NCBI GenBank assembly: GCA_016839705.1
Contig: JAEOTR010000028.1
Span: 1-15,826 of the forward strand
Length of the DNA stretch: 15,826 nt
DNA from: Promethearchaeota archaeon
GTDB lineage: Archaea; Asgardarchaeota; Lokiarchaeia; Sigyniarchaeales; SOKP01
Reading direction: 5' to 3'
Shown here one piece after another: positions 478 to 13,556 of the stretch. Below the pieces are notes generated by a model. It worked only from the letters and a program-made list of their open reading frames with translations, did not search any database and had not been told where the DNA came from. Made by a program: the position numbers and the translations under genes. The first letter of the stretch is position 1; the number at the start of each line of letters is the position of its first letter.

Positions 478-954
478 TTGATCGAAAATGTAGAAATTTT
501 TATTGGAATAGCTCATCTCGCAGGGATTTTCGTAGGATTTGAAGCTCTTATTAGTGCTACTCATCAAAAAGAAGTCGCAAGGATTAGGGGTATTGTAACA
601 GTGGGACTCATGACGATTATCGCCGCACTTATTCCTATCGGACTTGGTAGCTATGGATTAAGTGGTCATAGCTTATGGTTTTTGAGTAGCCTTATTTACC
701 TTTGTCTCAACTGGACTGTGATCATCTTGTCATTACGAATGCCTGAAAATAAGGAACTTGTGAGGTCCCAAACGAAAACGAGTTCCATACTTTTTTGGCT
801 TATATTCGAGGTTCCACTCGAAGTACCATTGATTCTAACCATAATTGGACTATTTCCTGATCTAGAACAGGCCTTCTACATTACAGCACTCGTATTCAAT
901 CTATTTTCGGCTGCTTATGTGCTTTCGCAAATAGTCTATACTAAAGCTGATTAA
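478..954 (+). CDS. Hypothetical integral membrane protein (~5 TM helices)
   Basis: 158-aa ORF with about five hydrophobic segments. TTG start is preceded by GAGTGGT, and a TATATATAA element lies at ~440-448. Confidence 0.8.
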   Translation: MIENVEIFIGIAHLAGIFVGFEALISATHQKEVARIRGIVTVGLMTIIAALIPIGLGSYGLSGHSLWFLSSLIYLCLNWTVIILSLRMPENKELVRSQTKTSSILFWLIFEVPLEVPLILTIIGLFPDLEQAFYITALVFNLFSAAYVLSQIVYTKAD

Positions 955-1163
955 TCAATTTAGTAAAAAGTAATTTCTAAATTATAATCATTTTTATTTT
1001 CAAATATTTATAAAACCGTCATTTGATGCATTATTATTCTTGAACAAGATAAATGGTTTTGCTGGAGGAATTGGTTCATACTATTTAAGCTATAAAGTAA
1101 ATTTAAGTCAATATTATTATACACATCTTTGTCTTACCTAATCATATCTAAACAAATTTCATT

Positions 1164-1301
1164 ATGGCTAAGTGTCTCAATAATCAAGATTCAATGAATC
1201 TTAAGGAAACACTTCACAACATTCCTGGAGTTGAAGAAGTAAAAACTGAAATCGTGTTAGACCGGATAAAAGAAGACCATTCTATTATCATCCCTGAGTA
1301 A
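1164..1301 (+). pseudogene. Remnant C-terminus of an Lrp/AsnC-family regulator (RAM domain end)
   Basis: Translates to MAKCLNNQDSMNLKETLHNIPGVEEVKTEIVLDRIKEDHSIIIPE*. The stretch L..IPGV..V.T.IVL..IKE matches the Lrp/AsnC C-terminus. There is an in-frame TAA at 1149-1151 and no HTH domain upstream. Confidence 0.65.
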
Positions 1302-1375
1302 TTTAAAAACAAGAATTTCCTTAGGTTTACTTAGTTTTATTTATTCTCTTTTTGATATTGTTAAAACGAAGATAA

Positions 1376-1676
1376 GCTAAAATTCTATTTGAGAATTCTA
1401 GATTCAACACTGTAGTTTTTCATAGTCAACAAGCAACAGAAAAAACAGTAAAAGCCTCATTATTTCATAACGAAATTAATGGGTGGGGACGTTCTATTCA
1501 CTTACTTTTAGAAAAATACGAAGAAATAAAAAAAGAAAAAGTTTGAAGGTGTCGAAAGATTAGCATTAGGCCTTGATAAACACTATATTATAACACATTA
1601 TCCGGACGCGTTTCCAAATATTGCACCACATAACGCTTATAATACACATAAAATTCTAAATATAATATCTCGGTGA
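1376..1676 (+). pseudogene. Frameshifted, 5'-truncated HEPN-domain gene (MNT-HEPN type)
   Basis: 1376-1546 reads AKILFENSRFNTVVFHSQQATEKTVKASLFHNEINGWGRSIHLLLEKYEEIKKEKV*. After a +1 shift in the A-runs near 1528-1540, 1542-1676 reads FEGVERLALGLDKHYIITHYPDAFPNIAPHNAYNTH...*. These match the HEPN motifs FxxQQAxEKxxKA, WGHS and LDxxYIxxRYPD. No start codon is present. Confidence 0.8.
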
Positions 1677-1694
1677 TATAAAAATTATCAAAGT

Positions 1695-1860
1695 TTAGGG
1701 AAGTATAATTAATTAACATTTGAAGTAAAATAATTTGAACTGTTTTCCCAATACTTGAGATAAATTTATATAAATATACAGTTATGTAATTGCTAAATAA
1801 GAATATATTTTTCCTATTTAGTTATTTTTGTGCTAAAAAAGGATTGGGAAAGGATATTAA
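1695..1860 (+). repeat. Copy A of a duplicated non-coding promoter/leader element
   Basis: Core 1720-1775 matches 11271-11327 at 52/57 aligned positions by manual alignment, with weaker similarity on both sides. It contains the TATA-like palindrome ATTTATATAAAT (1764-1775). Outer boundaries are approximate. Confidence 0.85.
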
Positions 1861-1888
1861 TTTTCATTTTTTTAATCGATATTTAAGC

Positions 1889-4800
1889 ATGAGTTTTATG
1901 ATGAGGATATACGATTTTAAAAGAAAAGAAAAACGATTTCATTTAGCTTTTATAATCACAATCTTTACCTTAATTTCAATAACTGTCCTTCCAAGTAGTA
2001 TAAATATAAATGATAAATATGAAAAATTTGACAATACAAATGATGATACAAATTTCATTATTAAAACCTCTACAAGCAATCCTCCCAATAATAACTATTT
2101 TAAATATTATAAAGCAATAACAATAAATCACGAGATGGTTGAAGGGTCTGGTAATTATACAAATTTTCCCGTTTTAATATCTATCTTGGATTCAGATTTG
2201 CATGATCATGTCAATCAATCAAATGGTAATGATATCGCATTTGCTAACGATACGGATTGGTTGGATCATGAAATAGAATTATTTAATATATCTTATGATG
2301 ACACTTATGCGCAGTTAATTACGTGGGTTCGCATTCCGAGCCTTTCTACACTAGTAAATACTACTATTTACATGTATTATGGGAATGCTACGATGAATTC
2401 CCGGCAAAATCCAACGGGTGTATGGGATACTTCTTATCGAGGGGTATGGCATCTTTCAGAGTTAAGTGGATATGCCATTGATTCCACTTCTTATGGTAGA
2501 ATTGGGTTTGTACAACCTACCGTTAGTAGGGGTGCAACGGGGGAGATTGATGGAGCGTATGACTTTGGAAATAATGGTCAAATTGATTTTGGTGATCCTT
2601 CTGATGGGCATTTAGATATGGGCACAGGGAGTTTTACAATTAGTTTTTGGATGAATATTGATGATAGTACGTCAAATTATCAATTACCATTATATAAAGG
2701 TGCTACAACTTATGATGAAGCCGGGTATGACTTTGAAACAAATACAGATGCAACATATCTCAATTTTCGCATTTGTGATGGCTCGGATATTGGAGAAGCG
2801 CATGATTTCGAAATCATTTTTGATAGCTGGGCGTATGTAACTGGAGTTGTGGATCGGTCATCGAATTACATGCGGCTTTATAAAGATGGTTCCCAAGTAA
2901 GTTCTACAGTAGATATTTCTAGCCTTGGAAGTATAAATACTAATAACTACCTTTATACTCCTTCTGCTACTTATGATTTAGATGGATTATTAGATGAGAT
3001 AAGAATTTGCAGCGTAGCGCGTACAGCAGGCTGGATCCTAACGGAATATAATAATCAAGATGACCCAGGAACGTTTTTTTCCTTAAGCTCGGAAGTTGTT
3101 GTAGACAATATTGCTCCCTCTTACTCAAATCTAATAGAAAGTTCAGATCCATTAGAATTAGGAGATACTGAAGTTATTAAAATAAATGTCTCCGATTCTT
3201 CCGGGATTAATCAGGTGAAAATCGAATTTGATAGTTCCAACCATTCAATGATAAATACTGTAGGAAATACATGGGAATATGACTCTTGGACTCCTAATAA
3301 TGTGGGGAATTATACTTATATGATATGGATGGAAGATAATTGCAATAATTGGAATTCTACTATGGGTACTATCGAAGTGATTGATACAACTTCACCAACT
3401 TATTCAAACCTACTTGAAAGTGCGGATCCTTTACAACTTGGACAAAATGAAACGATTGAAATTAGAGTATTCGATTTATCTGGGGTGAATCAAACCTTAT
3501 TAGAATATGATTCAACAAATCATAGTATGGTTTTTCAAGGTGGAAATAAATGGAGTTGGAGTAATTGGCAACCTATCACAGGATTTCGTCCTTATAAAAT
3601 CTATATGCAGGATAATCAAAACAATTGGAATATGACTAGTGGGAATATAACTGTAATAACCATATATGCTCCATTTATTGAAAATCTGACTGAGACTGAG
3701 GATCCCTTAGAATTGGGTAATGATATTAATATTAAGATTGATGTTTACGATAATGAAACTAGTGTATCTATAGTATTAATCGAATTGGATGGTATAAACC
3801 GTACAATGAGTAATATATCTGGAAATACTTATGAATATACCTGGAATGCCTCCGAATATATCGGAAGTGGATACTCAGTTGGATCCGTAAATTATAAAAT
3901 ATATGCAAATGATTCAGATAATAACTGGAATTCTTTAAGTAGTAGTTTTGATATTGTAGATACAACTTCACCTGACGTTTCAGGCCTTATAAAGAGTGAA
4001 GACCCTTTAGAACTTGGAAGTATGGTAATAATATCAGTAAATTCTACTGATTTATCCGATATTTACCAAGTAAAAATTGATTTTGAAGGATCCAACCATT
4101 CGATGACAAATATAGGAGGAAATACGTGGAATTATAGCCATTGGATTCCATTTGCTGCTGGAAATTGTTTATATACGATATGGGCAGAAGATAATTATAA
4201 TAATTGGGGATTTATTAGTGACTCTATTTTCGTTCAAGATACAACGCCCCCAACCTATTCAAATTTTACTGAAAGTGCTAATCCTGTCGAATTGGGTACT
4301 TTATTAACCATCTCGATTAAAACCACCGATTTTGCTAATATTAAAGAAGTATTGATAGAGTATGAAAATTCTAATCATACGATGGCAAATGTGGGTGGAG
4401 ATATATGGGATTTTGATTCTTGGATGCCAGACTCAAAAGGTAATTATAGCTACAAGATTTATATGACGGATAATAATGATAACTTGAATTATGTTAGCAG
4501 TTCGATATTGTTTCAAGATACTATTTTCCCGGTCTATTCTAATTTGTTTGAAAGTGCTGATCCTTTAGAGTTAGGGGATAATCAGATCATTAGCTTAAAT
4601 GCCTATGACTTCACTGGTATTAATCAATGTTTAATAGAATATCAAGGAGCGAACCATTCTATGATGAACATTTATGGAAATACCTGGCAATTTGATTCAT
4701 GGATCCCAAATAATTGGACTTTTTATCAATATAAAATCTATATAGAAGATAACAGCGGTAATTGGAATTTTATGATAGGAAATATTACCGTTCAAGACAC

Positions 4801-5944
4801 AACTCCTCCTTCACCACCCCTCTTAGCTAACGCTCCAAGCGGGGACGTTTATGGTAATCTAGTGTTTGATTGGTTAGATGGATCAGATCCTTCAGGTATT
4901 TCTTATTATTTATTAATTATTGATAATGAAACTGATCCCTCCATCACCCCGGGATATATTTATTTATTTAATATAACCAATATAGGACCTGAGAGTAGTT
5001 ATTACGAATTGACTGATAAATTTCCTTCAAGTAAATATTATTATTTTTTAGCTCAAGTTGATGGAACAGGTCATCAAAGTAGTTATACAATGGGTACCTT
5101 CACGATCCATTCAAATCCGAATAATAATAATTTTATGATTTATATCATTATTGCAGTAATTCTGATAAGTGTAGCGGGATCTATTACTGCTATAACAATC
5201 GTAAGGAAAAAATCACATAAAAAAATGGGTCCCCCCCGGAAAAAATTACCTCTTAAACTAATCTTAGCACACTTTGCTAAAATCTCATCTCAAGGATCAA
5301 CTTCAGAGGAGATAGAAGTTGGAGATATCCTAATTCAAGATGAACAAAATCAATTTTATCGTGAAGAATTACCTGATGAGGTAGATCTAGGAATTAATAT
5401 TGATGAGATTAAAGCTTTGGGAGAAGAATTATTCTCAGAAGGTGCTTATTTAGAGGCAATCAAGCAATTTCAACATGCAAAGGATCTTCTCTCAGAACAT
5501 GGTAGAAATGAAGAAGTAGTATTAATTTCCGATTTAATAGCTGGAATTGAAGGTTTAATTAACGAGCGTGAAAAACGATTAGAACTTTTAGAAAGAGAAA
5601 AAATCGAAGGGGGTTCCGTTAAAATCTTTGAATTATATTATGATATAATCGAGATATCAAAAAAATTAAGAGATCTTGATGGTATCAACATGTTCCAATC
5701 AGAACTAATTCAATTTTTTCAAACTAATAAATTTAAATTAGTAGTTATTGAAAAACATAGAGCAAATTTAGAGCAGGAGGCAGATTCATTATCACATAAT
5801 GGTTTTTTTGAAATGGCTGCTCAAATATATGGAAAATGTGAAGAAATATCCCAATTTTTAGTAAAATTAGAAAAGGAAGAAGAAATAACTAATGTTGAAA
5901 AATTTAGAAATAAAAAAAATGAGTGTCTAAAGAGAATTTCTTAA
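1889..5944 (+). CDS. Giant single-pass membrane/surface protein 1: signal peptide, DUF2341, LamG/ConA-like domain, 6 Ig-like repeats, FN3-like domain, TM helix, TPR/MIT-like cytoplasmic tail
   Basis: Basic plus hydrophobic N-terminus (KRKEKRFHLAFIITIFTLISITVLPSS). DUF2341-type motifs NFPVLI, GNDIAF, LDHEIE, WVRIP, IYMYYGN. LamG motifs FTISFW, LYKDG, GLLDEIRI. TM helix at ~5132-5203 followed by RKK. ATG at 1889 (or 1898/1901) is preferred over the track's TTG at 1790. Confidence 0.88.
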   Translation: MSFMMRIYDFKRKEKRFHLAFIITIFTLISITVLPSSININDKYEKFDNTNDDTNFIIKTSTSNPPNNNYFKYYKAITINHEMVEGSGNYTNFPVLISILDSDLHDHVNQSNGNDIAFANDTDWLDHEIELFNISYDDTYAQLITWVRIPSLSTLVNTTIYMYYGNATMNSRQNPTGVWDTSYRGVWHLSELSGYAIDSTSYGRIGFVQPTVSRGATGEIDGAYDFGNNGQIDFGDPSDGHLDMGTGSFTISFWMNIDDSTSNYQLPLYKGATTYDEAGYDFETNTDATYLNFRICDGSDIGEAHDFEIIFDSWAYVTGVVDRSSNYMRLYKDGSQVSSTVDISSLGSINTNNYLYTPSATYDLDGLLDEIRICSVARTAGWILTEYNNQDDPGTFFSLSSEVVVDNIAPSYSNLIESSDPLELGDTEVIKINVSDSSGINQVKIEFDSSNHSMINTVGNTWEYDSWTPNNVGNYTYMIWMEDNCNNWNSTMGTIEVIDTTSPTYSNLLESADPLQLGQNETIEIRVFDLSGVNQTLLEYDSTNHSMVFQGGNKWSWSNWQPITGFRPYKIYMQDNQNNWNMTSGNITVITIYAPFIENLTETEDPLELGNDINIKIDVYDNETSVSIVLIELDGINRTMSNISGNTYEYTWNASEYIGSGYSVGSVNYKIYANDSDNNWNSLSSSFDIVDTTSPDVSGLIKSEDPLELGSMVIISVNSTDLSDIYQVKIDFEGSNHSMTNIGGNTWNYSHWIPFAAGNCLYTIWAEDNYNNWGFISDSIFVQDTTPPTYSNFTESANPVELGTLLTISIKTTDFANIKEVLIEYENSNHTMANVGGDIWDFDSWMPDSKGNYSYKIYMTDNNDNLNYVSSSILFQDTIFPVYSNLFESADPLELGDNQIISLNAYDFTGINQCLIEYQGANHSMMNIYGNTWQFDSWIPNNWTFYQYKIYIEDNSGNWNFMIGNITVQDTTPPSPPLLANAPSGDVYGNLVFDWLDGSDPSGISYYLLIIDNETDPSITPGYIYLFNITNIGPESSYYELTDKFPSSKYYYFLAQVDGTGHQSSYTMGTFTIHSNPNNNNFMIYIIIAVILISVAGSITAITIVRKKSHKKMGPPRKKLPLKLILAHFAKISSQGSTSEEIEVGDILIQDEQNQFYREELPDEVDLGINIDEIKALGEELFSEGAYLEAIKQFQHAKDLLSEHGRNEEVVLISDLIAGIEGLINEREKRLELLEREKIEGGSVKIFELYYDIIEISKKLRDLDGINMFQSELIQFFQTNKFKLVVIEKHRANLEQEADSLSHNGFFEMAAQIYGKCEEISQFLVKLEKEEEITNVEKFRNKKNECLKRIS
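3104..4795 (+). repeat. Six tandem ~93-aa Ig-like coding repeats in protein 1
   Basis: D(T/N)xxP..S.L.ES.DPL(E/Q)LG...NHSM....W.....W.P...Y.I...D...NWN units start at 3104, 3383, ~3662, 3959, 4238 and 4517, mostly with a 279-nt period. The next domain starts at 4796. Confidence 0.85.
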
Positions 5945-5975
5945 CAAACGTATTGTGGGTAATTAAAAAAAGTTT

Positions 5976-5987
5976 AAATTTATATAA
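5976..5987 (+). promoter_or_regulatory. Putative archaeal TATA box for surface protein 2
   Basis: AAATTTATATAA is the same 12-mer found in both copies of the duplicated element, at a similar distance (~120 nt) from the ATG. An AGGTGGGA SD-like sequence lies at ~6088-6095. Confidence 0.45.
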
Positions 5988-6107
5988 CAGTTTTCTCTTT
6001 ATTCTTAAAGATAAGAGTATATTATACCGATTTGTCTAAATATTTGAGGTAGGGTATTTAAGCCATTTATATTTTTCAACTTGAATTAGGTGGGATGAAG
6101 AAAAACG

Positions 6108-9100
6108 ATGGGAAAAAAATATAGGAATAAAAAAATAAAATGTTATTTAATTTTTTTTATGCTCAGTTTTAGCATTATTTCAAGTATTCTCCTTCCAAAC
6201 AGTGATATCAATGCAAGAAATTGTGAAAAATTAGTGGATGATTCAAAATCCTTAATTCATACTTCTTCAAGTGGACCTCCAAATAAACACTTTTTTAAAT
6301 ATTATAAAACAATAACAATTGACCATAACCAAGTTAAGGGAACGGGGGATCATAAGAATTTCCCTGTGCTAATTTCGATTATTGATTCAGATTTACATGA
6401 TGCGGCTCAATCAAATGGAAACGATATTGCTTTTGGTAATGATACAGCGTGGTTAAACCATGAAATTGAACTATTTGAAAAGAATTATAATAGTACCCAT
6501 GCTAAATTGGTGGCATGGGTTCGAATTTCAGTATTATCAGTCACCACAGATACTATTTTTAGCATGTATTATGGGAATGAGACAATGGGCTCGAGACAAA
6601 ATCCTGAAGGTGTATGGGATGACAATTATTATGCGGTTTACCATATGAATCAAGATCCAGGCTCGACCTCCGTTCTGGATAGCACAGCTAATAATTATGA
6701 CTTAACTGCTGGTTCAGGATTTAATTCTGGAGATCTTGTAGATGGGGTTATCGGTAAAGCTATAAAGTTCGATTCGACAGATTATCCCAGTTCGGAATAT
6801 CTTGAAATGACTTCAGGTTTTTCTAATCCGACAAGCGCCCTCTCTCTTGAAATGTGGTTTAGACCTCAATTATATTCTGTTTATCAAAGATATTTTACCG
6901 CAACTGGTGCCAGGCCTGATATACTTTTGGGATGGGATAACAGGATTATAAGTCGGATTAAAAATCATCTTGGAAATACTTGTGATATAGAATTATCCTT
7001 CGATGAATGGAAGGATCAATTTTATCATTTAGTTATAACGTGGGAAGGTGGATCTGTTGGGCGTAAAAGGGCTTATCTTAACGGAACATTAAATGTAGAT
7101 GAATATGATGTCGAAGCCTTAGGAAATTCTTCTTTGTGGACAACTTATACAATCGGTACTGACTTAGATTACACTGATGTTGTTAACGCATTAATTGAGG
7201 AATTTAGAATCACTTCAAGTGTCCGTACACCCGGTTGGTTTGAAACAGAATATAATAATCAATATGATCCAAGTTCTTTTTATTCGATTGGAGAAGAAGA
7301 TCACGTAATAGATCATATACCTAATGCTCAATATTTCGCATATTATAAAGATATAATAATTGATCCTTCAATGGTGAGTGGATCACAGGATCTTCTTAAT
7401 TTTACAGTTTTAATTTCTATTATTGATGAAGATTTGCCAGATGAGGTTCAATTAAATGGAAATGATATTGCTTTTTCTAATGGTTTTTCTTGGTTAGACC
7501 ATGAAACCGAATTCTTTGATAAGTTTTATAACGGCAGTCATGCTCAATTAGTAGTTTGGGTTCGTATACCAAATTTATCACCATCTTTTGATACCGTTAT
7601 TCGTATGTATTACGGGAATTCTACTATGAGTTCAAACGAAAATCCTTCAGGAGTATGGAATACAAAATATAAGGGTGTTTGGCATCTCAAAGAGAATCCT
7701 TCAGCCCCTGCACCTCAATTTTCTGATAGTACAGCATATAACAATGATGGAACAGCTGTTAATTTATTTTCATCAAATCAAACTTCTGGGAAAATAGATG
7801 GGGGGCTTATATTTAACGATGAAAATGAAGCATGTGTAAATGTTTCGGATGACAATAGCCTTGATTTGAATAATGATATGACTATTTCAGCGTGGATAAA
7901 AACAAACGATAATGAAGACGATGTAGATATTGTTATAACTAAATGGTCTTTAAACCCGCCTAATCAAAATTACTGGCTCGGAAAGCTTAATCGTGATGAA
8001 TTTGCTTTTTATGTTGATTCTAATCAAAATGTTAAGATGAATCTAAATTTGATTAGGGATAATAATTGGCATTACGTCGTTGGAGTAGCAGATTCAACTA
8101 ATTCTTTATTAAGAATCTATCTTGATGGGACACAAAGAAATACGGCATCATATAGTGGAAGTTCACAAACAGGGAATCATCATCTAAATATTGGAAAAAG
8201 TTCTGGAATTATAGAACAAGAATGGAATGGTAAGATCGATGAAGTTCGAGTTGTAGATGTTGCCCATTCCGCAGCTTGGATTGCAACGGAATATAACAAC
8301 CAATACAATGCTCAATCCTTTATAACTGTAGGTTCAGGAGAAAAAGTCGATAATATCCCCCCTACTTATTCCAATCTAATAGAAAGTTCAGATCCACTGG
8401 AATTAGGAGATACAGAGGTTATTACAATAAATGTTTCTGATCCTTCAGGAATTAATCAAGTGAAAATAGAATTCAAAGACTCTGATCATGTAATCAGAAA
8501 TCACACCATGACAAATATATCAGAAAATGCGTGGCAGTACGACTCATGGACTCCCAACAACGTGGATAATTATACATATACGATATGGATGCAAGATAAC
8601 TTTGATAATTGGAATTCTACTCTCGGTACAATTGAGGTGATAGATACTACTCCACCAACTTATTCAGATCTAATTGAAAGTGCAGATCCTTTACAAATAG
8701 GACAAAACGAAACAATTACTATAAAAGTTTATGACTCTCCAGGTTCAGGTGTGAATCAAGTTCTTTTAGAATACGATTCTTCAAATCATACAATGATCAA
8801 TATTGGAGGAGATACGTGGAGATGGAATAAGTGGAAGCCAGCCAAAGGAAATCATTCTTATAACATATATATGGAAGATATGGAAAATAACTGGAATGTG
8901 ACCAGTGGAAATATAACAGTTGTTGAAGCAACTGGGCCAACCATTGAAAATTTTACTATGAGTGAGGATCCTTTAGAATTGGGAAATAGTGTCACTATTT
9001 TTGTTGATGTGTATGATAATAGCTCTGTAGATACCGTGTTTATTGAATTAGAAAACGTTAATTATACTATGAATAAGCCAGTGGGAAATACATATAATTA

Positions 9101-10922
9101 TACTTGGACGAGATCTTGGGTAGGAACGGTTATATACGTAATTTATGCAAATGATACATTAAATAATTGGAATTCATTTACAGGTAGTTTTGAAGTTGTA
9201 GATACGACTCCACCTGCTTTTTCAAATCTTACGAAGAGTGAACACCTCTTAGAATTAGGAGATACGGTAATAATAACAGTAAATTCTACGGATTTAGCAG
9301 AGATTAACGAAGTGAAAATCGAATTCATGGGCTCTAACCATTCCATGACAAATTTTAGTGCTTACACCTGGCAATATGACTCTTGGACTCCCGAAAGTGT
9401 TGGTAACTTTACATTTACGATATGGGCTGAAGATAATAATAATAACTGGGGCTTTATTAGCGATTCAATTTTAGTTCAAGATACAACACCCCCAACTTAT
9501 TCTAATTTAATTGAAACTGTTGATCCATTAGAGTTAGGAGATAATCCAATTATAACAATAGACGTCTATGATTTAGCTGATATTAACCAATGCGTACTAG
9601 AATTCGAAGGGGCGAATCATTCGATGACAAATATATATGGGGATACTTGGCAATTTGATTCATGGACACCAAATAACTGGATTGTTTATCAGTATAAGAT
9701 CTATATTGAAGATATGAGCGGTAATTGGAATTTTATAATAGGAAATATTACAGTTCAAGATACAACTCCTCCTTTACCACCTGTATTGACCAACAGTCCA
9801 AGTGGAGATGTTAGTGGTATCCTTGTTTTTGATTGGTTGGATGGATCAGATCTTTCAGGTATTTCTTATTATTTATTAATAATTGATAATGAAACTGACC
9901 CCTCCATCACCCCAGGATACATTTATTTATTTAACATTACTAATACAGGCTCCGAGAGTAGTTATTACGAATTAAATGATATCAATTCTTCAGGCAAGTA
10001 TTACTATTTTTTAGCTCAAGTGGATGGAGTAGGGCATCAAAGCACATATACAATGGGAACATTTAATGTAATTACACTTAGTAATGGTTCTCCTATTAAT
10101 AATAATTTTACGATTTATATCATTATTGCAGTAATTCTGATAAGTGTGGTTGGCTCTATTACTGCTATAACAATCGTAAGGAAAAAATCACACAAGAAAA
10201 TGAGTCCACCACGGAAAAAAGTACCTCTTAAACTAATCTTAGCACACATTGCTAAAATATCATCTCAAGGATCAACTTCAGATGAGGTAAAGGTTGGAGA
10301 TATCCTAATTCAAAATGAACAAAATCAATTTTATCGTGAAGAATTAACCGATGAGGCAGATTCAGGAATTATTATTGATGAGATTAAAGCTTTGGGAGAA
10401 GAGTTGTTCAAAGAAGGTGCTTATTTAGAGGCTATCAAGCAATTTCAATATGCAAAGGAATTTCTCTCAACGCAGGGTAGAAATGAAGCAGCAGCATTAT
10501 TTTCTGATTTAATCGTGGGAATTGAAGGTTTAATTGAAGAGCGTGAAAAACGATTAGAACTTTTAGAAACTGAGAAGGTTGGGGGGGAACCCACAAAGAT
10601 CTTTGAATTATATTATGATATAATTGAGATTTCAAGAAAATTAAGAGATCTTGATGCTATAAGCATGTTACAATCAGAATTAATTCAATATTTTCAAATG
10701 AACACCTCCAAGTTGAGAGATATTGAAATGTATAGGTCAAATTTAGGACACGAGGCAGATTCATTATCAAATAATGGTCTTTTTGAATTGGCAGCTCAAA
10801 TGTATGGAAAATGTGAGGAAATATCCCAATTTTTAGTTAAATTAGAAAAGGAAGAAGAAATAGCTAATGTTGAAAAATTTAGAAATAAAAAAAATGAATG
10901 TTTAGAAAAATTTTCTTTATAA
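6108..10922 (+). CDS. Giant single-pass membrane/surface protein 2 (paralog of protein 1): signal peptide, two DUF2341+LamG units, 5 Ig-like repeats, FN3-like domain, TM helix, TPR/MIT-like cytoplasmic tail
   Basis: The DUF2341+LamG unit occurs twice (starting ~6294 FKYYK and ~7335 FAYYK). TM helix at ~10107-10178 followed by RKK. The C-terminal ~480 aa are highly similar to protein 1. Confidence 0.9.
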   Translation: MGKKYRNKKIKCYLIFFMLSFSIISSILLPNSDINARNCEKLVDDSKSLIHTSSSGPPNKHFFKYYKTITIDHNQVKGTGDHKNFPVLISIIDSDLHDAAQSNGNDIAFGNDTAWLNHEIELFEKNYNSTHAKLVAWVRISVLSVTTDTIFSMYYGNETMGSRQNPEGVWDDNYYAVYHMNQDPGSTSVLDSTANNYDLTAGSGFNSGDLVDGVIGKAIKFDSTDYPSSEYLEMTSGFSNPTSALSLEMWFRPQLYSVYQRYFTATGARPDILLGWDNRIISRIKNHLGNTCDIELSFDEWKDQFYHLVITWEGGSVGRKRAYLNGTLNVDEYDVEALGNSSLWTTYTIGTDLDYTDVVNALIEEFRITSSVRTPGWFETEYNNQYDPSSFYSIGEEDHVIDHIPNAQYFAYYKDIIIDPSMVSGSQDLLNFTVLISIIDEDLPDEVQLNGNDIAFSNGFSWLDHETEFFDKFYNGSHAQLVVWVRIPNLSPSFDTVIRMYYGNSTMSSNENPSGVWNTKYKGVWHLKENPSAPAPQFSDSTAYNNDGTAVNLFSSNQTSGKIDGGLIFNDENEACVNVSDDNSLDLNNDMTISAWIKTNDNEDDVDIVITKWSLNPPNQNYWLGKLNRDEFAFYVDSNQNVKMNLNLIRDNNWHYVVGVADSTNSLLRIYLDGTQRNTASYSGSSQTGNHHLNIGKSSGIIEQEWNGKIDEVRVVDVAHSAAWIATEYNNQYNAQSFITVGSGEKVDNIPPTYSNLIESSDPLELGDTEVITINVSDPSGINQVKIEFKDSDHVIRNHTMTNISENAWQYDSWTPNNVDNYTYTIWMQDNFDNWNSTLGTIEVIDTTPPTYSDLIESADPLQIGQNETITIKVYDSPGSGVNQVLLEYDSSNHTMINIGGDTWRWNKWKPAKGNHSYNIYMEDMENNWNVTSGNITVVEATGPTIENFTMSEDPLELGNSVTIFVDVYDNSSVDTVFIELENVNYTMNKPVGNTYNYTWTRSWVGTVIYVIYANDTLNNWNSFTGSFEVVDTTPPAFSNLTKSEHLLELGDTVIITVNSTDLAEINEVKIEFMGSNHSMTNFSAYTWQYDSWTPESVGNFTFTIWAEDNNNNWGFISDSILVQDTTPPTYSNLIETVDPLELGDNPIITIDVYDLADINQCVLEFEGANHSMTNIYGDTWQFDSWTPNNWIVYQYKIYIEDMSGNWNFIIGNITVQDTTPPLPPVLTNSPSGDVSGILVFDWLDGSDLSGISYYLLIIDNETDPSITPGYIYLFNITNTGSESSYYELNDINSSGKYYYFLAQVDGVGHQSTYTMGTFNVITLSNGSPINNNFTIYIIIAVILISVVGSITAITIVRKKSHKKMSPPRKKVPLKLILAHIAKISSQGSTSDEVKVGDILIQNEQNQFYREELTDEADSGIIIDEIKALGEELFKEGAYLEAIKQFQYAKEFLSTQGRNEAAALFSDLIVGIEGLIEEREKRLELLETEKVGGEPTKIFELYYDIIEISRKLRDLDAISMLQSELIQYFQMNTSKLRDIEMYRSNLGHEADSLSNNGLFELAAQMYGKCEEISQFLVKLEKEEEIANVEKFRNKKNECLEKFSL
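8349..9758 (+). repeat. Five tandem ~93-aa Ig-like coding repeats in protein 2
   Basis: Units start at 8349, 8643, 8925, 9201 and 9480. The FN3-like domain starts at 9759. Confidence 0.85.
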
Positions 10923-11183
10923 ATGGATTCGATGTCTTATGGTGCGATAACTATTACTTTTTATGTTAGTGATATCATCGGAAATATCGGATCTGCTGAG
11001 GTTAATGTCATAAAAGGGCTTATAAGTCCAGGTGGATTAGAACCAGGAGTTATAATAGTTATCATAGTTGTAACTGTTATTGGGGGACTAGCTATAATAG
11101 GTGCGATTTGGGGAATACTTGTAAAGAAAGGAAAAATCCTTTTGTATATTTTTAAATCCTTAATATCTCATCAAGGGTGTTAA
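10923..11183 (+). pseudogene. C-terminal fragment of a different surface protein (half an Ig-like domain plus GGLEPG-TM-basic anchor)
   Basis: DSMSYGAITITFYVSDIIGNIGSAEVNVIK resembles the last two strands of an Ig-like repeat (G..TI.FY..D..GN). It is followed by GGLEPG, a long hydrophobic helix and KKGK. There is no signal peptide, and it starts on the base immediately after the stop of protein 2. Confidence 0.6.
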
Positions 11184-11244
11184 TTATTTTTCTTATAACA
11201 AAAACTAGTTATACATAATTCATGGAAAAATAAAGGTAAATAAT

Positions 11245-11410
11245 ATTTAGGAAAGATTAATTAATTGATATTGAAGTTAAAATAGTTTAAACTGTTTTTC
11301 CAATACTTCAGATAAATTTATATAAATGAATAGGTATGTATTAGTTAAAGTAAGATATGTTTTTCAATATTAAGCCACTTCTTAATTAAAAAATGATAGG
11401 AAAGTGGATT
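11245..11410 (+). repeat. Copy B of the duplicated non-coding promoter/leader element
   Basis: See copy A. It contains the near-perfect inverted repeat AAAATAGTTT/AAACTGTTTT (11279-11298) and ATTTATATAAAT (11316-11327). Confidence 0.85.
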
Positions 11411-11467
11411 TTTACCTTTATTTTGCTCAGAAAAAGATCTTAATACACAATTTTAAGGTAAAGAAAT

Positions 11468-12667
11468 ATGAAAAAAATACCGGGCACTTTATATCATTTT
11501 GGCATTGCAAGTTCTAAAAATAATAGTTTAGGAATTAATATTTGGTATAGAAGTGAGTTAATTTTTGAGAGAACTGGAATATTACAGGAAGAAATTATTA
11601 ATATTCTACAGAAATTTTTCGAAAGTAAAAATTTAACCATACCACGTAATAGGTTATCATGGGTCGTAAAAGAGGAATTAAATGAGTTATCTCCAACAAG
11701 TGATATTACTTTTATTGAAGGTACTGTATCAGAAATACTTGGAGAAATTCAAAAAAAACCTTCAGAAAATGTAAAAAAAATAGTTTTGATGGGACTTTCT
11801 AACGCGGGAAAAACCTGCATTTATGAACGGGTATTTGAAGGAAAAAAACCCTGGGAATTAATGCAATCTACAGCAACAAAAGGAATAGATTATAAAAAGT
11901 ATGAAGTTGGCAGTGTTACAAAACCAATGATATGGGATTTAGGAGGACAGCAACAATATCTTGATGAATATCACGGTCCTTTAAGAAAAAGTATATTTCA
12001 AAAGGCATCTGTATTATTATATATTATTGATGCTTCAGATTCTGACCGTTTTGAAAATGCTCGGGTTGAATTTGAATGGAGCGTAAATCAAATCTTATCA
12101 TTCAATCAATCTCCAATAGTAAATGTTTTTTTTCATAAAATTGATCTTATTCACGATAAAGATGCTTTAATTCCTTATTTAAAGAATATTTTATCCCAGA
12201 ATATATCTTACAAAATAAATTTTTATGCAACCTCAGTGTTCGATGAATCATTATTTACGGCGTGGAGTGGAATTATACGAGATATATCACCTAAATCAAT
12301 TTTCATTAATTCAATATTAAAGACATTGAAGGATCAAGAAGGTGTTAAAGACGCATTGTTGATTGAAAAAACAACTGGACTTGCATGCGGTTCAACTCTA
12401 GATGGATCCGATGAGGAAATTGTTATCGGCATGGTTTCCTTATTAATAGTAACTTGCGATAAAGTCACAAAAAATATGAAATTACAAAATTTTAGTGAAT
12501 TTAGGTTAAAAACGTCATCTAATTATTTATTATTAACTGATGTTACTCCAGATTTAATGCTTGTAATTATTTTGGGCTCATCGGCTTTTACTGATAATAT
12601 ATTAAAAGATATTGAAGAGGTAGGTAAGGAAATTGCAATACAAATTAGAGATTTATGGAATGATTAA
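11468..12667 (+). CDS. Rag-family (Gtr1/RagA-like) small GTPase with a ~100-aa N-terminal extension and a C-terminal roadblock domain
   Basis: G1 GLSNAGKT, G2 TAT, G3 WDLGGQ, Rag-type G4 HKID, and G5 region TSVFDESLFTAWS (cf. RagA TSIWDETLYKAWS). The C-terminal LKDQEGVKDALLIEKTTGLACGS... has a roadblock helix-strand-strand-helix pattern. Confidence 0.88.
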   Translation: MKKIPGTLYHFGIASSKNNSLGINIWYRSELIFERTGILQEEIINILQKFFESKNLTIPRNRLSWVVKEELNELSPTSDITFIEGTVSEILGEIQKKPSENVKKIVLMGLSNAGKTCIYERVFEGKKPWELMQSTATKGIDYKKYEVGSVTKPMIWDLGGQQQYLDEYHGPLRKSIFQKASVLLYIIDASDSDRFENARVEFEWSVNQILSFNQSPIVNVFFHKIDLIHDKDALIPYLKNILSQNISYKINFYATSVFDESLFTAWSGIIRDISPKSIFINSILKTLKDQEGVKDALLIEKTTGLACGSTLDGSDEEIVIGMVSLLIVTCDKVTKNMKLQNFSEFRLKTSSNYLLLTDVTPDLMLVIILGSSAFTDNILKDIEEVGKEIAIQIRDLWND

Positions 12668-12683: not shown

Positions 12684-13556
12684 ATGCCACGAGGAATGTT
12701 TTTACTCATACATGATGAGATAATGGGACCGGAAATTAAATGCTCTTATTATACAAATCCAGTAAGTTTAAGCAAAGAATTAATATCAAAACTTTATATC
12801 TCTCATGCGGGGTTTAAATCACCATCTCAACTAGAAATAAAATTTGAGAATTTTAGAAGTATTTCATGTTTCACTGGTAATCTTGATCGCAGAAGTCAAA
12901 AAGAAGGAATATTAGGAATAATTTTTGAGGAAGATGAAGAATTTGATAATTTAGATTTATTTTTACAACGCAATTTATATGATGCTATCGATAAATCGAG
13001 TGATGAAACAATGCAAGAAATTTTTTCGACAAAACTTCTTCATTATCTATCACTAAGCAATCTTTTTCAAAAGGTAGAAATTGAAGGTATTCCAGAGTTA
13101 TTTATTATAAATGGAAATGAACAATATAAATCCTGTGTCTTACGAATTGGTGAAAGCACTGTTTCGATTTCAGAGATGACTGATTTGTATAAAAAAATCA
13201 TAAAGAAACAAACAATTTCACAATATCATTATATAAGTTTAAATTTAGAAAATGAAAAAAATACCTTTTTAGTTTTAAGGATTAACAGTCCTAGTAAGAC
13301 TATTGAGACAATAACGACAACATTAAAACTATATTTAGAAGAATTTTTCTATTATTCACTAGAAATTTTAGCTTTATTATTTCTACCTTCAATTATAAAG
13401 GTACTTCCATTAAAACAAGAAATTTCTAAAAAAAATTTAGGTAAGTCTAATACGTTTCTACAAAGTCTACAACAATCAAAGAACTATTATAATAAATTTA
13501 ATGATACAATCTCAAACTTGTTAAAAGGAAATATCTATATTGAGCCATCATTATAA
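12684..13556 (+). CDS. Protein with an N-terminal longin-like domain, probably co-transcribed with the Rag GTPase
   Basis: Lies 16 nt after the GTPase stop, with a GAGGT RBS. The N-terminus MPRGMFLLIHDEIMGPEIKCSY has the hydrophobic strand-D-x3-GP-hydrophobic hairpin typical of u-DENN/NPRL2/FLCN-type longins. The CDS is secure; the domain call is tentative. Confidence 0.6.
   Translation: MPRGMFLLIHDEIMGPEIKCSYYTNPVSLSKELISKLYISHAGFKSPSQLEIKFENFRSISCFTGNLDRRSQKEGILGIIFEEDEEFDNLDLFLQRNLYDAIDKSSDETMQEIFSTKLLHYLSLSNLFQKVEIEGIPELFIINGNEQYKSCVLRIGESTVSISEMTDLYKKIIKKQTISQYHYISLNLENEKNTFLVLRINSPSKTIETITTTLKLYLEEFFYYSLEILALLFLPSIIKVLPLKQEISKKNLGKSNTFLQSLQQSKNYYNKFNDTISNLLKGNIYIEPSL

What the first reader, a model, noticed from the sequence alone, without database searches (positions are those of the whole stretch)
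11245..11410. Same ~165-bp non-coding element upstream of two unrelated genes (receptor 1 and the Rag GTPase)
Seen: 1720-1775 and 11271-11327 agree at 52/57 positions, and similarity continues for roughly 85 nt past the TATA-like palindrome ATTTATATAAAT. The downstream genes are not homologous, so simple gene duplication does not explain it. Inference, three options: a shared promoter or 5' leader defining a regulon; direct repeats left when the ~9.5-kb receptor cassette was inserted in front of the GTPase operon; or a small dispersed element. Recombination between the copies would excise both receptors and leave one promoter in front of the GTPase.
Basis: partly seen in the sequence, partly recalled or inferred. 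Interest (0 to 1): 0.72.

Follow-up and report, generated by a model that had tools for sequence, protein, structure and literature searches.

The report
Orphaned receptor promoter before Rag GTPase
The repeated ~180-base element is the promoter and untranslated leader that belongs to a family of cell-surface receptor genes in this Loki-type Asgard archaeon, and the copy in front of the Rag GTPase is most likely such a receptor promoter that lost its receptor gene: a real but fairly ordinary piece of operon evolution.

Summary

It is not a mobile element, not a structured RNA, and not a scar of receptor-cassette insertion. In the genus (54 genomes) 11 of 12 further copies read to a gene lie 107-177 nt upstream of a receptor start codon, so this is the receptor family's TATA-type promoter plus 5' leader.

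In most relatives the last receptor ends only 3-60 nt (mostly 17-25) before the GTPase start, so a tight receptor-GTPase operon is the older state.

In G000, G011, G013 and G055 a 390-545-nt block sits in that junction. It holds a relic of an upstream surface-protein gene, copy B, the last codons and stop of a receptor ORF, and the old 24-nt junction.

Copy B is therefore a receptor promoter whose receptor ORF is gone, and it now drives the GTPase operon. A fifth genome (G062) reached the same result by a separate deletion inside a receptor.

B's core is more conserved than silent sites of the GTPase, so it is probably active. No RNA data were available to map transcript starts.

The scan's other notes on this window describe the receptor-GTPase locus itself; none that I saw resolves this element.

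The parts
1694..1870 (+). Copy A: promoter plus 5' leader of receptor 1 (head of the receptor array)
   Evidence: 77% identical to 11246-11424. Orthologous copies lie upstream of receptor genes in G048, G061, G010, G064 and G002, and before a broken receptor in G062.
1759..1775 (+). Invariant core of copy A, with TATA-like box TTTATATA at 1765-1772 and a purine-rich stretch just upstream (BRE-like)
   Evidence: ATAAATTTATATAA is identical in all 16 copies aligned. The 17-mer is unique to the two copies in this genome. The genome encodes TBP.
1889..5944 (+). Receptor 1: signal anchor, DUF2341, LamG, Ig-like repeats, TM helix, about 330-aa cytoplasmic tail
   Evidence: Pfam hits. Start at ATG 1889 inferred from orthologs' N-termini.
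5976..5987 (+). TATA-like AAATTTATATAA in the 163-nt receptor 1 / receptor 2 spacer: a diverged promoter candidate for receptor 2
   Evidence: Read directly from the sequence. It is too diverged for the element profile to detect.
6108..10922 (+). Receptor 2, a paralog of receptor 1 with two DUF2341-LamG heads
10923..11183 (+). orf86: relic of the C-terminal TM anchor of a beta-helix-type surface protein gene; part of the block inserted in the receptor-GTPase junction
   Evidence: 45% aa identity (tblastn E 2.5e-6, blastp E 5.5e-7) and 70.5% nt identity over 129 nt to the 3' end of an intact 517-aa gene. In G061 that gene lies directly upstream of a receptor promoter, in the same order as here. 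No other homolog in the own genome.
11149..11191 (+). Two oligo-T runs (11149-11153, 11187-11191) between receptor 2 and copy B: candidate archaeal terminators for the receptor transcript
   Evidence: Runs of 4-8 T at the same places in all four B-bearing species. The 20-nt window 11181-11200 is 85% invariant. The terminator function is inferred.
11246..11424 (+). Copy B: receptor-type promoter plus leader, now the promoter of the Rag GTPase operon
   Evidence: Orthologs are present in G013, G011 and G055. It clusters (98/100) with promoters of intact receptor genes G011_C148 and G055_C193a. The core is 70-90% invariant against 46% at 4-fold sites.
11311..11327 (+). Invariant core of copy B (TATA-like box 11317-11324). 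Predicted transcript start about 11345-11350 by the usual archaeal spacing.
   Evidence: The transcript start is an inference only; no RNA data.
11430..11443 (+). Relic of the last codons and TAA stop of a receptor ORF
   Evidence: 16 of 20 positions match the 3' end of the G048 receptor. From the last sense codon TCT onward, 24 of 25 positions match G048's tight junction. A metagenome contig joins 10913 directly to 11438.
11444..11467 (+). Ancestral receptor-GTPase junction with Shine-Dalgarno-like AAGGT (11455-11459)
   Evidence: Homologous to the junctions (mostly 17-25 nt) of G048, G061, G002, G007 and others.
11468..12667 (+). Rag/Gtr1-type GTPase with C-terminal Roadblock domain
   Evidence: Pfam Gtr1_RagA 1.4e-39 and Robl_LC7 1.3e-7. 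Single orthologs in 23 of 53 other genus genomes.

Best explanation
The element is the transcription-control module of one receptor gene family. It has three parts: an archaeal TATA/BRE-type core promoter (invariant ATAAATTTATATAA), a conserved block of about 35 nt upstream of it that probably binds a specific regulator, and an unstructured 5' leader of about 100-150 nt.

Copy A heads the receptor 1-receptor 2 array. Copy B is a paralogous receptor promoter that no longer has a receptor behind it.

The ancestral operon was promoter - receptor(s) - short junction (mostly 17-25 nt) with Shine-Dalgarno - Rag GTPase. In the lineage of G000, G011, G013 and G055 a second promoter block came to lie between the last receptor and the GTPase. 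That block carried the 3' end of the gene that preceded an array head, then the promoter and leader.

The most likely route is a segmental (tandem) duplication of the array, followed by deletion of the duplicated receptor ORF(s). The deletion ran from about 20 nt before the start codon to about 15 nt before the stop codon. What remains is leader, then the last receptor codons with TAA, then the old junction, then the GTPase.

The consequence is inferred. The GTPase operon is now transcribed from its own receptor-type promoter. Oligo-T runs upstream probably end the receptor transcript. The GTPase thus stays co-regulated with the receptors without being co-transcribed.
For: Shown:
- Two copies only in this genome, with E about 1e-26.
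- Of 12 further copies in 9 genus genomes whose downstream gene was read, 9 are followed by a receptor ORF, 2 by the GTPase, and one runs off its contig end. With the copies of G000, G013, G011 and G055, one search places 11 copies 107-177 nt upstream of a receptor ATG, including copies inside tandem arrays.
- 19 of the 24 GTPase loci examined in the genus have the gene within 60 nt of an upstream ORF stop, mostly 17-25 nt, with a GAGGTG-type Shine-Dalgarno.
- The right end of B reproduces the last sense codon, the stop and the junction of tight-junction relatives (24 of 25 nt against G048).
- The left flank of B (orf86) is collinear with the 3' end of the 517-aa surface-protein gene that precedes a receptor promoter in G061.
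- B copies cluster (98/100) with promoters that still drive intact receptors in G011 and G055.
- G062 shows an independent receptor deletion. It leaves 24 N-terminal and 33 C-terminal codons and puts an A-type promoter in front of the GTPase.
- B's core and proximal leader are 70-90% invariant among four species, against 46% at 4-fold degenerate sites of the adjacent GTPase.
- The genome encodes TBP.
- No conserved RNA structure and no Rfam family.
Against: - No transcript data exist. No RNA runs hold the locus, so promoter activity, transcript start and termination are all inferred.
- The in-situ deletion of a receptor ORF cannot be told apart from a direct copy-paste of the promoter block. 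Both leave the same roughly 18-20-nt direct repeat (receptor 3' end plus TAATAC) at the two ends of the block.
- The distribution is patchy on the GTPase tree. G016 is nested among B-bearers but has the tight junction, and G048, G061 and G002 also lack B. So losses, reversion of a duplication, or recombination between lineages must be assumed.
- The tail tree puts the receptor upstream of B in G011 with the last, tightly joined receptors of G016 and G048. That fits a duplication or an insertion, but not a simple loss of a unique last receptor.
- Nearly all relatives' contigs break inside the repetitive receptors, so full arrays could not be compared.
Confidence: 0.72

Rival explanations
1. Copy-paste insertion. 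A fragment of about 400-520 nt (3' end of the surface-protein gene, promoter, most of the leader) was copied from an array head straight into the tight receptor-GTPase junction. The copying would have been replication template switching or gap repair, and it duplicated about 18-20 nt of target (receptor 3' end plus TAATAC). No receptor ORF ever stood behind B.
For: One event explains the block. The block is flanked by near-identical 18-20-nt direct repeats in G011. The receptor upstream of B in G011 clusters with the last, tightly joined receptors of G016 and G048. A metagenome contig joins 10913 to 11438 exactly across the repeat. Excision between the repeats could explain the tight junction in G016.
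Against: No known mechanism routinely gives an 18-20-nt target duplication. Receptor-ORF deletion that leaves the promoter is directly documented in G062. Tandem receptor duplication is pervasive at this locus. Duplication followed by deletion predicts the same repeats.
Confidence: 0.2
2. The shared sequence is kept because the transcribed leader is a structured cis-regulatory RNA (riboswitch-, thermometer- or attenuator-like) that both mRNAs need.
For: Similarity continues about 97 nt past the TATA box. An ATG at the same leader position opens a short upstream ORF in all four B copies.
Against: RNAalifold finds essentially no consensus structure: -0.31 kcal/mol on 6 copies and an open chain on 14 leaders. 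Thirteen of the 14 leaders have unremarkable folding z-scores (+0.95 to -1.5); only G000_A is lower, at -2.55. No Rfam hit reaches threshold. The upstream ORF varies in length and sequence and is absent from copy A and from G061.
Confidence: 0.05
3. A small mobile or dispersed repeat (MITE-like), or attachment-site-like direct repeats left by integration of the receptor cassette.
For: Two direct copies flank about 9.5 kb that holds both receptors.
Against: Only two copies exist in the genome. No terminal inverted repeats were found. In every relative the element keeps the same orientation and distance to a receptor start. Receptor-GTPase adjacency is ancestral in the genus. The two copies belong to different, old promoter lineages.
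Confidence: 0.03

Closest known systems
Promoter reuse / 'putative mobile promoters' in prokaryotes (commentary 'Promoter reuse in prokaryotes', Mob Genet Elements 2012, PMC3575422; seen in abstract only)
   Same: Highly similar upstream regions stand in front of genes that are not homologous, which rewires or preserves regulation independently of the coding sequence.
   Different: Here the promoter did not move to a foreign gene. The GTPase was already under this promoter type as the distal gene of the receptor operon, and the receptor ORF between them was lost or never copied. There is no link to a mobile element, and only two copies exist per genome.
Archaeal BRE/TATA core promoters recognised by TBP and TFB (textbook knowledge)
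   Same: An invariant AT-rich 8-mer TTTATATA is preceded by a purine-rich GATAAA, and the genome has TBP genes.
   Different: Conservation extends far beyond a core promoter: about 35 nt upstream and about 50-100 nt downstream. The module therefore also carries gene-family-specific information, presumably a regulator site and a leader. The transcript start is unmapped.
Internal operon promoters created by rearrangement, and orphan promoters left by gene decay (general bacterial/archaeal genome evolution; own knowledge)
   Same: A distal operon gene gains or keeps its own promoter after the structure upstream changes. Relics of the lost ORF remain.
   Different: It occurs twice independently at the same receptor-Rag GTPase junction within one Asgard genus (the B block, and the G062 deletion).
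Asgard Rag-like GTPase with fused Roadblock domain (Commun Biol 2024, PMC10933270)
   Same: The downstream gene has the GTPase-Roadblock architecture described there for Lokiarchaeia.
   Different: That paper states that MK-D1 small GTPase genes are generally not in operons with their putative regulators. Here the GTPase is ancestrally coupled, by a junction of mostly 17-25 nt, to a single-pass surface receptor. The paper does not mention this: it has no occurrence of 'transmembrane' or 'promoter'.

Membership tests
Archaeal TBP/TFB-dependent core promoter | AT-rich TATA box of about 8 bp with a purine-rich BRE directly upstream | tested here: met
   GATAAA + TTTATATA is invariant in 16 copies from 10 genomes.
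Archaeal TBP/TFB-dependent core promoter | The organism uses TBP | tested here: met
   PF00352 hits above the cut-off on three contigs of the own genome.
Archaeal TBP/TFB-dependent core promoter | Transcript start about 22-27 nt downstream of the TATA box | not testable with these tools
   No RNA run holds the locus; only DNA contigs could be laid.
Archaeal TBP/TFB-dependent core promoter | Under purifying selection relative to neutral sites | tested here: met
   Window 11277-11356 is 70-90% invariant in four species, against 46% at 95 four-fold sites of the GTPase.
Reused / mobile promoter (PMC3575422) | Highly similar upstream region before non-homologous genes | tested here: met
   77% identity over about 180 nt before a receptor and a GTPase.
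Reused / mobile promoter (PMC3575422) | Spread to several unrelated loci, or association with mobile elements | tested here: not met
   Two copies in the genome. In relatives it is found only before receptor genes or this GTPase.
MITE-like dispersed repeat | Many copies, terminal inverted repeats, short target duplications, no fixed relation to a gene | tested here: not met
Structured cis-regulatory leader RNA | Conserved secondary structure with compensatory changes | tested here: not met
   RNAalifold gives -0.31 kcal/mol on 6 copies and 0 on 14 leaders. No Rfam match passes threshold.
Direct repeats flanking an inserted gene cassette | Relatives show the empty site (one repeat copy, no cassette) as the ancestral state | tested here: not met
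   Tight receptor-GTPase junctions occur in both major branches of the GTPase tree. The only 'empty' form (G062) carries 5' and 3' relics of a deleted receptor.

The most novel reading that the evidence does not exclude
The receptor-Rag GTPase operon of this Loki-type genus repeatedly sheds or uncouples the receptor while always keeping a receptor-type promoter on the GTPase. This happened twice independently: the B block in four species, and the internal receptor deletion in G062. That would mean selection keeps the GTPase module under the same, still unknown, regulator as the surface receptors. The conserved block of about 35 nt upstream of the TATA box would be that regulator's binding site and would define a small receptor / Rag-GTPase signalling regulon in an Asgard archaeon. 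Unstable tandem duplications of the array (duplicate, then collapse or decay) would be what generates the variants.
Probability: 0.35. Interest if true: 0.5.

Novelty: new member of a known kind. Interest (0 to 1): 0.3.

Why it matters
On its own the element is an ordinary product of operon rearrangement. Its value is as evidence about the locus around it.

- It shows that the single-pass LamG/Ig receptor and the Rag-type GTPase were ancestrally one transcription unit with a junction of mostly 17-25 nt. It also shows that the GTPase kept a receptor-type promoter in each of the two rearrangements seen. This is independent comparative support for a functional receptor-to-Rag-GTPase link in Asgard archaea, where GTPase partners are otherwise hard to assign from gene order (PMC10933270).
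- It gives a defined, conserved candidate Asgard promoter with a likely regulator site. That is useful for in-vitro transcription or reporter work in Lokiarchaeia.
- It also corrects the annotation: receptor 1 starts at ATG 1889, not TTG 1790, and orf86 is a gene relic.

Tried and rejected
- Searching the genus with a sequence-only covariance model (R1) failed twice on the server side. I used BLAST and a local nhmmer profile instead.
- No RNA holder was listed for the locus, so transcript starts could not be examined.
- Laying metagenome contigs on the window showed no listed joint between about 1750 and about 11300 (the A x B recombinant). Only the best-supported joints are printed, and contigs drop rare variants, so this is not evidence of absence.
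- I tried to link relatives' contigs across the receptors. G061 C130/C159 overlap by exactly 77 nt, but inside a motif shared by receptor paralogs, so the adjacency is unsure. G002 C4/C19 and G048 C230/C291 do not overlap.
- Upstream synteny of the A-type copies is not conserved between genomes.
- A genome-wide plot of TATA-like motifs against start codons gave no sharp peak, so the leader length could not be called unusual.
- The sigma-70 promoter / intrinsic terminator scan is not informative for an archaeon.
- I considered gene conversion between A and B in G000. It is not needed, because the shared upstream block is also present in A-type and B-type copies of other species.

Full report
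**The observation**

The window is a whole 15,826-nt contig (C7) of a 3.36-Mb, about 93%-complete marine-sediment MAG with 31% G+C. It encodes TBP. Other notes of this scan call it a Loki-type Asgard archaeon; I did not test that beyond TBP and the Gtr1/RagA-Roadblock GTPase.

BLAST extends the pair to 1694-1870 vs 11246-11424 at 77% identity, E about 1e-26 against the whole genome. The 17-mer core GATAAATTTATATAAAT is found only at 1759 and 11311, even with one mismatch. A profile HMM built from 16 copies finds only these two places at E up to 10. The repeat is therefore real, far beyond chance, and two-copy.

**Gene context**

The order on the + strand is as follows.

| Feature | Coordinates | Notes |
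|---|---|---|
| Copy A | 1694-1870 | |
| Receptor 1 | 1889-5944 | ATG start; DUF2341, LamG, Ig-like repeats, TM helix, about 330-aa cytoplasmic tail |
| Spacer | 163 nt | own TATA-like AAATTTATATAA at 5976-5987 |
| Receptor 2 | 6108-10922 | |
| orf86 | 10923-11183 | |
| Copy B | 11246-11424 | |
| GTPase | 11468-12667 | Gtr1/RagA with fused Roadblock domain |
| orf290 | 12684-13556 | |

The TTG-1790 start listed for receptor 1 lies inside the shared non-coding element. Orthologs begin at the ATG that matches 1889.

**What the element is**

BLAST of copy A against all 54 genomes of the genus found further copies in nine of them. I read what follows 12 such copies:

- Nine are followed by a receptor ORF: G048, G061, G010, G064, G002, three in G011, and one in G055.
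- Two are followed by the GTPase: G062 and G055_C82.
- One runs off its contig end: G055_C193b.

With the copies of G000, G013, G011 and G055, one search places 11 copies 107-177 nt upstream of a receptor ATG in the same orientation. Some lie between tandem receptors: the receptor stop is followed by about 130 nt, then the element, then the next receptor.

In the 16-copy alignment ATAAATTTATATAA is invariant. The block of about 35 nt upstream of it and the 50 nt downstream are well conserved, and the distal leader less so.

No consensus RNA structure exists. RNAalifold gives -0.31 kcal/mol on six copies and an open chain on 14 leaders. Folding z-scores are unremarkable (+0.95 to -1.5) except for G000_A at -2.55. 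Rfam gives nothing above threshold.

The simplest reading is a TBP/TFB-type promoter, a gene-family-specific upstream site, and an unstructured 5' leader. Other DUF2341/LamG proteins of the genome (contigs C29, C32) have a different tail and lack the element.

**Which state is ancestral**

GTPase orthologs were found in 23 of the 53 other genus genomes. In 19 of the 24 loci examined the upstream ORF, where identified a receptor, ends within 60 nt of the GTPase start, mostly 17-25 nt. The junction has a GAGGTG-type Shine-Dalgarno and no T-run, so this is a tight operon. The tight state occurs in both major branches of the GTPase tree.

Only G000, G013, G011 and G055 carry a 390-545-nt block with copy B in this junction. 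G064a has an unrelated 387-nt gap, and G062a is a special case described below. The receptor cassette was therefore not inserted in front of a pre-existing promoter-GTPase unit. The B block is the novelty.

**Anatomy of the B block**

- *Right end.* 11430-11467 reads as the last receptor codons, TCT TAA, then the old junction. From TCT onward it matches the tight junction of G048 at 24 of 25 positions, and the 20 nt ending just past the stop match the receptor 3' end at 16 of 20.
- *Leader.* B's leader stops about 20 nt short of where A-type leaders reach the receptor ATG.
- *Left end.* orf86 is a relic of the C-terminal TM anchor of a surface protein. An intact 517-aa homolog lies directly upstream of a receptor promoter in G061. 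The G000 block is collinear with it: 129 nt at 70.5% identity, then 296 nt at 67.6%.
- *Shorter versions.* G011, G013 and G055 lack about 190 nt of this relic.
- *Flanking repeat.* In G011 the block is flanked by a near-identical direct repeat of 18-20 nt, consisting of the receptor 3' end plus TAATAC.
- *Metagenome variant.* Contigs from the same sediment study include a form that joins 10913 directly to 11438. This is the tight junction, in a relative whose GTPase part differs at 24 of 255 positions.

**Origin of the B block**

- B copies form a clade (98/100) with the promoters of intact receptor genes G011_C148 and G055_C193a. The A-head group (G000_A, G048, G061, G062, G010, G064) is separate. 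A and B of the window are thus old paralogs within the receptor-promoter family, not recent copies of each other.
- The receptor tail upstream of B in G011 clusters (100/99) with the last, tightly joined receptors of G016 and G048. So the receptor upstream of B corresponds to the 'last' receptor of the other genomes.
- Together with the novel joint between the receptor stop and the 3' fragment of an array-head neighbour gene, this fits a tandem duplication of the array and its head. The duplicated receptor ORF(s) were then deleted, leaving leader, ORF tail and junction.
- A direct copy-paste of the promoter block with an 18-20-nt target duplication gives the same end state. I cannot exclude it (about 0.2).
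- The patchy distribution needs extra events under either route. G016 is nested among B-bearers, and G048, G061 and G002 lack B. Collapse of an unstable tandem duplication, excision between the flanking repeats, or recombination between lineages would each do. This part is inference.

**An independent parallel**

In G062 contig C128 an A-type promoter has the same Lrp-like neighbour that survives as a 45-codon relic at 1164-1301 of the window. The promoter is followed by 24 N-terminal receptor codons and a stop. Then come the last 33 receptor codons, the junction and the GTPase. This is an unambiguous internal deletion of the receptor(s).

**Is B functional?**

Among the four B-bearing species, 11277-11356 (upstream block, TATA, proximal leader) is 70-90% invariant and 11435-11467 about 88%. 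The flanks are 20-55% invariant. The 95 four-fold degenerate sites of the adjacent GTPase are 46% invariant. This indicates purifying selection on B.

T-runs of 4-8 are kept at two places between the receptor stop and B. In archaea such runs are the usual termination signal (own knowledge). I infer, but have not shown, two things:

- The receptor transcript ends there.
- The GTPase operon is transcribed from B, with a start near 11345-11350.

**Verdict**

It is wrong on cassette insertion and on a dispersed element.

The phenomenon (promoter reuse, or an orphaned promoter after gene loss) is known in kind (PMC3575422, abstract seen). This instance is new and modestly interesting. Its main value is as comparative evidence that receptor and Rag GTPase form one regulatory unit in this Asgard genus.

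Noticed in passing
window 10890-11470; loci L079, L082-L088, L106, L107: In most genus members a single-pass LamG/Ig receptor stops 17-25 nt before the Rag-type GTPase start, with a GAGGTG-like Shine-Dalgarno. This is a conserved tight receptor-GTPase operon, with orf290 and the convergent orf349 also syntenic.
   Followed up: partly
L123 (G062 C128) 10047-10340: Receptor pseudogene remnant: promoter, 24 N-terminal codons and a stop, then the last 33 codons, then the GTPase. G062 also has a second GTPase locus with an intact tight receptor junction (C96).
   Followed up: yes
window 10923-11183: orf86 starts at the base after receptor 2's stop codon. It is a fragment of the TM anchor of a 517-aa beta-helix-like surface protein that is intact in G061 (L121 4359-5912). 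It is probably a relic rather than a gene.
   Followed up: partly
window 954-1694 (orf45 at 1164-1301): The 'empty' 740 nt upstream of copy A contains the last 45 codons of an Lrp/AsnC-type regulator (89% aa identity to the C-terminus of an intact 154-aa gene in G062, L123 8502-8966). This is another gene relic.
   Followed up: partly
window 5945-6107: The receptor 1 / receptor 2 spacer carries the same TATA core AAATTTATATAA (5976-5987) about 120 nt before the receptor 2 ATG, plus an AGGTGG Shine-Dalgarno. Otherwise it is too diverged to count as an element copy.
   Followed up: no
window 11393-11443: A short upstream ORF (16 codons) starts at an ATG conserved in all four B copies. In G000 it ends at the relic receptor stop codon. 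Its length and sequence differ between species, and the ATG is missing in copy A.
   Followed up: partly
window 2100-10100 (table 5): Metagenome contigs from the same sediment study show many alternative joints inside and between the two receptors (e.g. 2387->6609, 3295->8567). Nearly every relative's assembly breaks inside these genes. The receptor array is highly variable among co-occurring strains.
   Followed up: no
window 1790-1888: The TTG-1790 start that mechanical ORF calling gives receptor 1 is spurious. These 99 nt belong to the conserved non-coding leader that is also present before the GTPase.
   Followed up: yes
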